Shown here: positions 52,691 to 52,823 of the stretch, one piece after another
How the letters are laid out: each line of letters starts with the position of its first letter
Position numbering within the stretch: the first letter of the stretch is position 1
DNA from: Escherichia coli
GTDB lineage: Bacteria; Pseudomonadota; Gammaproteobacteria; Enterobacterales; Enterobacteriaceae
Reading direction: 5' to 3' (one strand)
DNA: 64,000 nucleotides
NCBI RefSeq assembly: GCF_003018115.1
Contig: NZ_CP027457.1
Program-made: the position numbers and the translations under genes
The notes under the pieces: generated by a model
Database searches by the model: none
The model's input: only the letters and a program-made list of their open reading frames with translations
Told to the model about the DNA's origin: nothing

Positions 52691-52727
52691 TAAAAAAACC
52701 GCAGGACCGGTTTCCCGGCCTGCGGTA
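52691..52727 (-). terminator. Intrinsic terminator ending the hok-like transcript, just upstream of the stf RBS
   Basis: Minus strand accgcaggccgggaaaccggtcctgcggt + T7, then GGAGG and the stf ATG. Confidence 0.5.
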
Positions 52728-52823
52728 AAATTTGTGATTTATTGATGTTAAAAAGGTGCCATCCGGCTGATCACCCTCAGCAACCGGTCGGCGGGGAAGG
52801 TACACTCCCCCCCCCACGGTTTC

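What the first reader, a model, noticed from the sequence alone, without database searches (positions are those of the whole stretch)
52691..52820. Terminator abutting the stf ribosome-binding site, plus a 9-nt homopolymer tract upstream
On the tail-gene strand a GC hairpin plus T7 terminator (52691-52727) ends about 12 nt before the stf start, so only antiterminated late transcripts should reach stf. About 80-120 nt further upstream is a run of 9 C (plus strand, about 52806-52815; G9 on the coding strand) in the hok-like 3' UTR. Homopolymer tracts this long are slippage-prone, so the tract could be length-variable, though a phase-variation role is only a guess.
Basis: inference. Interest (0 to 1): 0.3.

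Follow-up and report, generated by a model that had tools for sequence, protein, structure and literature searches.

The report
hok toxin mRNA tail before stf
The hairpin-plus-T7 and the nearby run of nine G are ordinary parts of the 3' tail of a hok/sok toxin-antitoxin cassette sitting between the prophage tail genes J and stf; the G run is a rare variant of a conserved RNA stem, not a phase-variation switch.

Summary
[quoted passage not shown] After the hok stop come a GC stem-loop (the "tract" is its 5' arm), an fbi-like segment that pairs with the mRNA 5' end, an AU-rich linker, and the cassette's own intrinsic terminator. In relatives the tract reads GGCGGGGG, pairing with CCCCGCC. G9 is a rare derived allele: 4 of 68 complete E. 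coli genomes of this sublineage, and 0 of 43 viral or metagenome loci. Every carrier has exactly nine G. The allele breaks one conserved C-G pair and costs about 2 kcal/mol. It lies in no ORF and no promoter spacer, so phase variation is not supported. The idea that the terminator insulates stf is plausible but not special: lambda, Lambda_2E9 and P-EibA each have an unrelated terminator hairpin at the same position against the stf ribosome-binding site. Verdict: ordinary, already-known kind, low interest.

The parts
53118..53146 (-). Predicted hok promoter: -35 TTGCCG 53146-53141, 17-nt spacer, -10 TACAGT 53123-53118. It starts 17 nt after the J stop codon.
   Evidence: Read from the sequence. 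It matches 8 of 12 consensus positions, below the scan tool's threshold. It is conserved in relatives. Inference only.
52692..53111 (-). Predicted full-length hok (mok-hok) mRNA, about 420 nt.
   Evidence: The Rfam sok/hok-leader model starts at 53111. MFE is -190.4 kcal/mol, z = -8.9. The consensus fold of 36 distinct relatives gives the same architecture.
53095..53111 (-). tac-like 5' element (GGGUGCCUUUGGCUGAU) that pairs with the fbi-like 3' element.
   Evidence: A 17-19 bp long-range helix appears in the MFE and consensus folds. When the 3' part is removed in silico it refolds into a local 5' hairpin.
52970..53063 (+). Predicted Sok antisense RNA gene: -35 TTGCTC 52970-52975, -10 TAACCT 52993-52998, RNA about 53004-53063, ending in hairpin 53024-53059 plus UUUU.
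   Evidence: Read from the sequence. Fold is -21.6 kcal/mol. It lies opposite the region matched by Rfam RF01794. The target hairpin is hypervariable among relatives, with compensatory changes.
52831..53040 (-). mok-like overlapping reading frame (69 codons from ATG 53040). The start codon and SD are not established.
   Evidence: R1 mok has 70 codons (PMC9841398).
52824..52964 (-). hok toxin ORF (46 aa).
   Evidence: Pfam PF01848 E = 2.4e-11. It is 39% identical to R1 Hok over 33 aa. RefSeq names it a Hok/Gef family protein in relatives.
52783..52820 (-). Post-stop stem-loop, the counterpart of the terminal stem of processed (Tr) hok mRNA. Its outer helix is ACCG/CGGU and its inner helix is G-run/CCCCGCC.
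   Evidence: In 9 diverse sequences 98.3% of cells are paired, against 68% or less in slid registers, and two pairs show G:C to A:U compensation.
52807..52815 (-). G9 run, the 5' arm of that stem. It is a rare derived allele of GGCGGGGG.
52754..52771 (-). fbi-like element (AUCAGCCGGAUGGCACCU), complementary to the mRNA 5' end.
52727..52753 (-). AU-rich single-stranded linker between the fbi-like element and the terminator.
   Evidence: It is unpaired in all folds. The corresponding linker in an R1-type hok is only about 5 nt.
52692..52726 (-). Intrinsic terminator of the hok transcript: a 12-bp hairpin with a GAAA loop, then U7.
   Evidence: A homologous hairpin follows hok in P2-like prophages.
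52676..52689 (-). stf translation-initiation region: SD GGAGG 52689-52685 and ATG 52678-52676.
   Evidence: The stf ORF is 52678-50966, with Pfam phage_tail_N E = 2.4e-40.

Best explanation
The interval 52691-52820 is the 3' untranslated tail of a hok/sok-type type I toxin-antitoxin cassette, a 'moron' inserted between tail genes J and stf of a lambdoid prophage. Reading the minus strand after the hok stop codon there are four elements. (1) A GC-rich stem-loop whose 5' arm is the G run. By analogy with plasmid R1 hok, this is the terminal stem that protects the 3'-processed, translatable toxin mRNA from 3'-5' exonucleases. (2) An fbi-like segment that pairs with the 5' end of the mRNA and keeps the full-length transcript closed and untranslatable. 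(3) An AU-rich linker. (4) The cassette's own intrinsic terminator. That terminator ends hok-promoter transcription 13 nt before the stf start codon. As a result stf and tfa can only be reached by polymerases that ignore terminators, namely the Q-modified late transcription complex. The G9 run is not a designed slippery tract. It is a rare derived allele (GGCGGGGG to GGGGGGGGG, a C-to-G change plus one extra G) that breaks one conserved C-G pair of the stem. The run can re-pair in a slipped register, so the predicted cost is only about 2 kcal/mol, and the allele is most likely near-neutral or mildly weakening for hok. Shown here: the positions, the folds, conservation and covariation, and allele frequencies. 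Inferred: transcript ends, 3' processing, Sok expression, termination efficiency, and Q dependence.
For: Identity of the cassette: Pfam HOK_GEF; Rfam sok E = 9e-10; a 420-nt fold with a 17-19 bp 5'-3' helix, z = -8.9; predicted 5' refolding after 3' truncation. An R1-type hok has the same order of stop, GC stem, fbi and terminator. In R1, 19 of 22 loss-of-function 3'-UTR substitutions break a C-G pair of the terminal stem of Tr-hok mRNA (PMC9841398). Stem: 98.3% of cells paired and two compensated pairs across lambdoid and P2-like hok loci; the only unpaired cells are the window's G9 and one G-to-T variant. Allele census: exact G9 in 4 of 68 complete E. coli genomes against exact GGCGGGGG in 65 of 68; 0 of 33 IMG/VR loci and 0 of 10 metagenome loci carry G9. 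G9 sits on two Sok-target backgrounds, each with an otherwise identical GGCGGGGG twin. Energetics: -24.0 against -25.9 kcal/mol for the local hairpin, and the same ~2 kcal/mol gap in full-length and truncated mRNA. Terminator: -24.3 kcal/mol, z = -5.3; conserved in 36 of 36 distinct sequences; travels with hok into P2-like prophages. Late-operon context in the closest genome: Q antiterminator, stx1, lysis, head and tail genes, J, hok and stf are all co-oriented.
Against: The Rfam score (50.3 bits) is below the family's gathering threshold of 59, and the gathering-level scan reports nothing. The tac/fbi helix is invariant in the sequences collected, so it has no covariation support of its own. 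No canonical SD-plus-start was found for mok. The hok and Sok promoters were identified by eye and fall below the scan tool's threshold. No transcript, processing or termination data exist for this locus. The Q/Stx context comes from a genome only 97-99.5% identical to the window, not from the window itself.
Confidence: 0.85

Rival explanations
1. The G9 run is a contingency (phase-variable) tract whose length changes by slippage and switches expression of stf or hok on and off.
For: Nine G is long enough to slip. Elsewhere in the family the shorter G5 run is G6 in two sequences (L007, L037). The G9 allele itself contains one more base than its GGCGGGGG parent, so a +1 slip probably happened once.
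Against: The tract lies in a 3' UTR. The only ORF that would contain it, a GTG-ORF annotated in phage 1720a-02, varies from 8 to 98 codons among alleles and is not a gene. No promoter-like site spans the tract. It is upstream of a strong terminator, so it cannot gate stf. All five G9 carriers have exactly nine G, and no G8 or G10 appears among 68 genomes. In 108 of 111 other copies examined the tract is interrupted by a C that pairs in a conserved stem.
Confidence: 0.03
2. The G9 allele is a functional attenuator or suppressor of hok. By breaking a C-G pair in the exonuclease-blocking terminal stem, it destabilises the processed toxin mRNA and lowers or abolishes killing, like the R1 suppressor mutations.
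For: In R1, single substitutions that break a C-G pair of this stem abolish toxicity and remove Tr-hok mRNA (PMC9841398). The window allele breaks the conserved C:G pair at alignment columns 11/32 and 304/325. The rest of the locus is identical to intact copies.
Against: The predicted loss is only about 2 kcal/mol, because the G run re-pairs in a slipped register (GUGGGGGGGG/CCUUCCCCGC) and the hairpin remains at -24 kcal/mol, equal to the R1 stem at -24.6. There is no experimental test. The allele is rare, which fits drift as well as selection.
Confidence: 0.2
3. The hairpin is selected mainly as a terminator at the J-stf junction that makes side-tail-fibre expression depend on Q antitermination. 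On this view it is a feature of the phage late operon, and hok merely supplies the hairpin in this phage.
For: Unrelated hairpins followed by a U-run sit directly against the stf RBS in lambda (GCCCGCCGG/CCGGUGGGC, T6, 11 nt to the ATG), in Lambda_2E9 (J followed directly by GGGCACCA/UGGUGCC, T6, with no moron) and in P-EibA (after lom). PhiR12 has lost the toxin but kept the terminator.
Against: The window's hairpin is homologous to the one that follows hok in P2-like prophages with no stf, so its origin is the hok cassette. The two roles are compatible rather than exclusive. No expression data are available.
Confidence: 0.3
4. The G9 run is an assembly or sequencing artefact, a homopolymer error.
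For: Long-read assemblies often miscount homopolymers. The closest RefSeq genome has other apparent lesions in this prophage: an 83-nt deletion in J and a frameshifted DUF4222 gene.
Against: The allele needs a C-to-G substitution as well as an extra base. The identical 89-nt sequence occurs in four independent complete genomes from the USA, China and Japan, plus the window.
Confidence: 0.03

Closest known systems
hok/sok (parB) of plasmid R1, the archetypal type I toxin-antitoxin system
   Same: It has a Hok/Gef toxin, an overlapping mok-like frame of about 70 codons, and an antisense RNA gene opposite the leader. The mRNA 5' end pairs with a 3' fbi-like element. A GC stem-loop follows the stop codon directly (R1: GGAGGCGGGC/GCCCGCC; here GGCGGGGG/CCCCGCC), and a terminator hairpin forms the 3' end.
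   Different: The toxin is 46 aa rather than 52, and only 39% identical over 33 aa. The linker between fbi and terminator is about 27 nt and AU-rich instead of about 5 nt. No SD-plus-AUG for mok is recognisable at the R1 position. The locus sits in a prophage late operon rather than on a plasmid. The Rfam score is below the gathering threshold.
hokW-sokW of Stx2 prophage Sp5 (E. coli O157:H7 Sakai; PMC8621323)
   Same: It is a hok-family type I toxin-antitoxin system carried by a Shiga-toxin lambdoid prophage, and it has been shown experimentally to be a functional TA system that speeds phage release after induction.
   Different: HokW is 51 aa. The paper does not describe a J-stf location (no occurrence of 'tail' in its text), and no 3'-UTR analysis is reported there. 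Whether the present locus has the same phenotype is unknown.
hok loci of P2-like prophages (ogr-hok)
   Same: The Hok size is the same (141-nt ORF). The 3' UTR is about 83-88% identical. It has the same post-stop stem with compensatory changes, the same GGCACCC fbi motif, and a homologous CCGCAG...CUGCGG terminator.
   Different: The genomic slot differs (after ogr, at the prophage end). The U-run is interrupted (UUUUCUUUUU), and no stf lies downstream.
The lambda lom moron and its terminator upstream of stf (orf-401)
   Same: It occupies the same slot between J and stf. The cassette ends in an intrinsic terminator whose U-run lies 11-13 nt from the stf start codon.
   Different: The cargo differs (an outer-membrane protein rather than a toxin-antitoxin system), and the hairpin sequence is unrelated.

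Membership tests
[quoted passage not shown] | Small hydrophobic toxin of the Hok/Gef family | tested here: met
   Pfam PF01848 at 43.5 bits (cut-off 22), E = 2.4e-11. BLASTP against R1 Hok gives E = 9e-11.
[quoted passage not shown] | Leader/antisense region recognisable as the sok/hok leader RNA family | tested here: inconclusive
   Rfam RF01794 matches full length (model positions 1-157), E = 9.4e-10, but at 50.3 bits it is below the gathering score of 59. Nothing is reported at the gathering threshold.
[quoted passage not shown] | Antisense Sok RNA gene with its own promoter and terminator opposite the mok translation-initiation region | tested here: inconclusive
   On the plus strand a TTGCTC-17 nt-TAACCT promoter-like site and a GGCCUCGGG...CCGGGGCC-UUUU hairpin were found by inspection and folding. 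They are not detected by the consensus scan. No expression data are available.
[quoted passage not shown] | mok reading frame overlapping hok and needed for its translation | tested here: inconclusive
   An open overlapping frame of 69 codons runs from ATG 53040. No convincing SD was found, and the R1-equivalent position has no start codon.
[quoted passage not shown] | Long-range tac/fbi pairing of the mRNA 5' and 3' ends that closes the full-length mRNA | tested here: met
   A 17-19 bp helix (53111-53095 with 52771-52754) appears in the MFE and the 36-sequence consensus folds. This is in silico only, and the pairs are invariant, so there is no covariation.
[quoted passage not shown] | Stable terminal stem-loop just 3' of the stop codon that forms the 3' end of the processed mRNA | tested here: met
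   The hairpin is at -24 to -27 kcal/mol. 98.3% of cells are paired and two pairs are compensated.
[quoted passage not shown] | Slow 3' processing, refolding, Sok-dependent RNase III decay, and post-segregational killing | not testable with these tools
   Only the refolding of the 5' end after in-silico truncation could be shown.
Rho-independent (intrinsic) terminator | GC-rich stem-loop immediately followed by a U-run on the transcribed strand | tested here: met
   A 12-bp stem, GAAA loop and U7, at -24.3 kcal/mol, z = -5.3. It is conserved in 36 of 36 distinct relatives.
Rho-independent (intrinsic) terminator | Transcripts actually end in the U-run, and Q-modified polymerase reads through | not testable with these tools
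   This needs Term-seq or 3'-RACE with and without induction.
Phase-variable (contingency) homopolymer tract | The tract lies inside a coding sequence or between promoter elements, so that length sets expression | tested here: not met
   It is in a 3' UTR, 8 nt after the hok stop. The only ORF across it is not conserved. No promoter-like site spans it.
Phase-variable (contingency) homopolymer tract | Length polymorphism among closely related isolates | tested here: not met
   All five G9 carriers have nine G, and no G8 or G10 was found. Relatives differ by a substitution-interrupted tract. Within-population variation could not be tested.
Phage moron | An autonomous cassette (own promoter, gene, own terminator) inserted between two phage genes, with alternative or empty states of the same slot in related phages | tested here: met
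   A promoter-like site follows the J stop and a terminator precedes the stf RBS. The same slot holds lom in lambda and P-EibA, nothing in Lambda_2E9, and a toxin-deleted hok scar in PhiR12. Expression in the lysogen was not tested.

The most novel reading that the evidence does not exclude
The G-rich 5' arm of the exonuclease-blocking stem is a mutational tuning site for toxin activation. On this reading, the C-to-G change created a slippery run, and one-base slips or re-registered pairing then adjust the half-life of the processed hok mRNA, and so the threshold at which the prophage kills its host. The allele would spread between co-resident prophage copies by recombination, which would explain why G9 is found on two different Sok-target backgrounds.
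Probability: 0.06. Interest if true: 0.45.

Novelty: already known. Interest (0 to 1): 0.15.

Why it matters
It matters little beyond correct annotation. The interval should be read as the regulatory 3' UTR of a hok/sok cassette, not as a protein-coding ORF (as in the GenBank record of phage 1720a-02) and not as a phase-variation site. Two modestly useful points follow. First, natural alleles of the terminal stem (GGCGGGGG against G9) are ready-made material for testing, in a prophage hok, the R1 result that this stem controls stability of the processed toxin mRNA. Second, a terminator pressed against the stf ribosome-binding site recurs in lambda and several relatives with unrelated hairpins. 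This suggests selection to keep side-tail-fibre genes silent unless the late antitermination complex is active, and it marks the right-hand boundary of a cassette-exchange slot.

Tried and rejected
1. Hidden ORF: the GTG-ORF 52817-52635 (60 aa here, annotated as AGR48335.1 in phage 1720a-02) would place the tract in a coding region. Its length varies from 8 to 98 codons among alleles, so it is rejected.
2. Promoter spanning the tract: the sigma-70 scan found none.
3. Rfam at gathering threshold over 48.5-64 kb: no hit. Only the E-value search recovers the sok model.
4. Assumption that the window is NZ_CP024289.1: wrong. Identity is 99.5% over 7.5 kb and about 97% further on, and that record has an 83-nt deletion in J. 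No complete E. coli genome is identical. The Q/Stx1a context is therefore from the closest genome only.
5. Metagenome scan for more alleles: only 10 loci, all GGCGGGGG.
6. Phage database: only one close relative of the hok locus, 1720a-02.
7. A first homopolymer simulation timed out and was replaced by an analytic Markov estimate.
8. Literature searches for a described hok cassette between J and stf, and for an sRNA array between I and J, found nothing specific.
9. A strong loss-of-function reading of G9 was down-weighted, because slipped re-pairing keeps the hairpin at -24 kcal/mol.

Full report
OBSERVATION. Both features exist at the stated places. On the minus strand the hairpin ACCGCAGGCCGG-GAAA-CCGGUCCUGCGGU spans 52726-52698 and runs into a T7 tract (52698-52692). 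The stf Shine-Dalgarno sequence GGAGG is at 52689-52685 and the stf ATG at 52678. The hairpin folds at -24.3 kcal/mol (shuffles -9.95 +/- 2.7, z = -5.3). The G9 run is 52815-52807, beginning 8 nt after the stop codon of a 46-aa ORF (52964-52824) that is a Hok/Gef toxin (Pfam E = 2.4e-11). It is the only homopolymer of nine or more, and the only G/C run of eight or more, in the window. A Markov estimate gives about 0.3 such G/C runs per 64 kb, so by itself it is only mildly unusual.

WHAT THE INTERVAL IS. J (Pfam GpJ domains) ends at 53163 and stf (phage_tail_N, collagen repeats) starts at 52678. [quoted passage not shown] Rfam's sok/hok-leader model matches 53111-52953 full length (E = 9.4e-10, 50.3 bits, below the gathering score of 59). 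The RNA from 53111 to the T-run (about 420 nt) folds at -190.4 kcal/mol (z = -8.9). Its first 17 nt pair with 52771-52754, which is the hok-family tac/fbi closure described for plasmid R1 (PMC9841398). The RNAalifold consensus of 36 distinct relatives gives the same architecture. In order: a long-range 5'-3' helix, a Sok-target hairpin, the hok ORF, a stem-loop immediately after the stop codon, the fbi-like segment, an unpaired AU-rich linker, and a terminal hairpin with a U-run. An R1-type hok fetched for comparison has the same order: stop, GGAGGCGGGC/GCCCGCC stem, GAAGCGCC (fbi), then a terminator. Removing the 3' part in silico makes the 5' end refold into a local hairpin, as in the R1 activation model. 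By inspection there is a hok promoter-like site just after the J stop (TTGCCG-17-TACAGT). On the plus strand there is a Sok promoter-like site (TTGCTC-17-TAACCT) with a hairpin-UUUU terminator at 53024-53063. A 69-codon mok-like frame overlaps hok. These last items are inferences.

THE G RUN. Aligning the window with complete E. coli genomes and phage 1720a-02 shows that the tract normally reads GGCGGGGG and pairs with (U/C)CCCCGCC. The loop differs between sublineages (AGUGUACCU, AGAAUAU, ACCCUGU, ACUCAGU) while the stem is kept. More distant hok loci in P2-like prophages have GACGGGGG/CCCCCGUC and GACGGGGA/UCCCCGUC, which are G:C to A:U compensations. On a nine-sequence alignment 98.3% of cells pair, against 68% or less in slid registers. 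The only unpaired cells are the window's G9 allele and one G-to-T variant.

Census of the AGUGUACCU sublineage: the exact G9 context occurs in 4 of 68 complete E. coli genomes, and the exact GGCGGGGG context in 65 of 68. None of 33 IMG/VR loci or 10 metagenome loci has G9. In the AGAAUAU sublineage 37 genomes carry the exact GGCGGGGG context. G9 carriers all have exactly nine G; no G8 or G10 was seen. G9 occurs on two different Sok-target backgrounds, each with an otherwise identical GGCGGGGG twin. Three of the four complete-genome carriers also hold a GGCGGGGG copy in another prophage. This suggests one origin spread by recombination, although recurrence cannot be excluded.

Energetically G9 costs about 2 kcal/mol: -24.0 against -25.9 for the hairpin, -190.4 against -192.3 full length, and -140.2 against -142.3 truncated. 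The cost is small because the run can re-pair in a slipped register. In R1, substitutions that break a C-G pair of the equivalent stem abolish toxicity by destabilising the processed mRNA (PMC9841398). A mild attenuation of hok is therefore possible but unproven.

PHASE VARIATION. This is not supported. The tract is in a 3' UTR. The GTG-ORF that would contain it (annotated as a hypothetical protein in phage 1720a-02) varies from 8 to 98 codons among alleles. No promoter-like site spans the tract. It lies upstream of a strong terminator, and its length is invariant among carriers. The only hints of slippage are the extra G of the allele itself and two relatives with G6 instead of G5.

THE TERMINATOR AND stf. 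The hairpin belongs to the hok cassette. A homologous CCGCAG...CUGCGG hairpin with a U-run follows hok in P2-like prophages, where the downstream genes are com, ihfA or serS rather than stf. At the same time, a terminator pressed against the stf RBS is a general lambdoid feature:

- Lambda has lom, then GCCCGCCGG/CCGGUGGGC, T6, and 11 nt to the ATG.
- Lambda_2E9 has J followed directly by GGGCACCA/UGGUGCC and T6.
- P-EibA has lom followed by a different hairpin and T8.
- PhiR12 phages keep the hok promoter and tac joined directly to fbi and the terminator, with the toxin deleted.

Homology between these contexts resumes at the U-run and RBS. Only 13 nt separate the U-run from the ATG, so stf cannot have its own promoter there. 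In the closest complete genome (2012C-4431) the corresponding prophage encodes a Q-family antiterminator upstream of stx1AB, and all late genes through stf are co-oriented.

CAVEATS. The window is not identical to any complete genome in the collection (best 99.2-99.3% over 14 kb), so the prophage-wide context is borrowed. Genome counts are per best place, not per copy. All RNA claims are computational.

COMPARISON AND VERDICT. [quoted passage not shown] RefSeq already names the protein Hok/Gef. Enrichment of hok in prophages is documented (bioRxiv 10.1101/2025.08.07.668861), and a prophage hok/sok (hokW-sokW of Sp5) has been characterised (PMC8621323). This subfamily differs in three ways: a shorter toxin (46 aa, 39% identical to R1 Hok), a longer fbi-terminator linker, and its J-stf location. 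The finding is real but ordinary. The terminator interpretation is acceptable and generic, and the homopolymer interpretation is not supported.

Noticed in passing
window 56860-57765 (between tail-assembly gene I, which ends at 57763, and the J start at about 56849): There are four tandem units of about 220-230 nt (68% mean identity) with no ORF longer than 45 aa. Each has a conserved core (GAATAAAAATTCTGA..TTCACATTT). On the plus strand, antisense to the tail genes, three of the four end in a clean CCCGCAG...CTGCGGGATTTTTTT hairpin plus T-run; unit 2 is degenerate. No Rfam family matches at E <= 1. The unit nearest J occurs in 849 of 5426 E. coli genomes (median 5 places per genome), while the four-unit array occurs in only 66. 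This is a candidate array of small plus-strand transcription units (sRNA genes?).
   Followed up: partly
window 53005-53023 (minus strand; alignment A1 columns 90-118): The Sok-target hairpin of the hok leader is hypervariable. At least five allelic versions exist among otherwise near-identical loci, with compensatory changes in the stem (pairs 97/114, 98/113 and 100/112). Genomes carry up to 4-5 copies in different prophages. This is consistent with diversification of antisense specificity between co-resident cassettes.
   Followed up: partly
L064 (phage PhiR12_1) 808-991; also L012 (E. coli CI5): PhiR12 phages carry a hok 'scar'. The hok promoter and tac element are joined directly to the fbi element and terminator, so the toxin, mok and sok are cleanly deleted, yet the terminator against the stf RBS is retained. 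Strain CI5 has a different deletion of about 100 nt that removes the hok 3' end through fbi.
   Followed up: partly
window about 55890-55964, inside J; NZ_CP024289.1 967004-970607: The closest RefSeq genome (2012C-4431) lacks 83 nt of J that are present in the window, so its J is annotated as a frameshifted pseudogene while the window's J ORF is intact. The window is therefore from a different, unsampled genome.
   Followed up: yes
window 52675-52692 (minus strand): A small inverted repeat, AUGGA...UCCAU, could sequester part of the stf SD and the start codon in a 5-6 bp hairpin directly after the U-run. It is partly kept in relatives through G-U pairs. Its significance is unknown.
   Followed up: no
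L013 (phage 1720a-02, KF030445.1) locus 664-843: The GenBank record annotates a 59-aa hypothetical protein (AGR48335.1) that runs through the hok 3' UTR, the terminator and the stf start. Frame comparison across alleles shows it is not a gene.
   Followed up: yes
window 56900-56923 (minus strand): A strong 10-bp hairpin, ACAGGCACCC-UCCG-GGGUGCCUGU, followed by UGUUUUUGGG lies just upstream of the J start. It is another terminator-like element inside the late operon.
   Followed up: no
window 51600-52300: The collagen-like Gly-X-Y repeat region of stf reaches 70-72% G+C, far above the roughly 55% of its surroundings.
   Followed up: no
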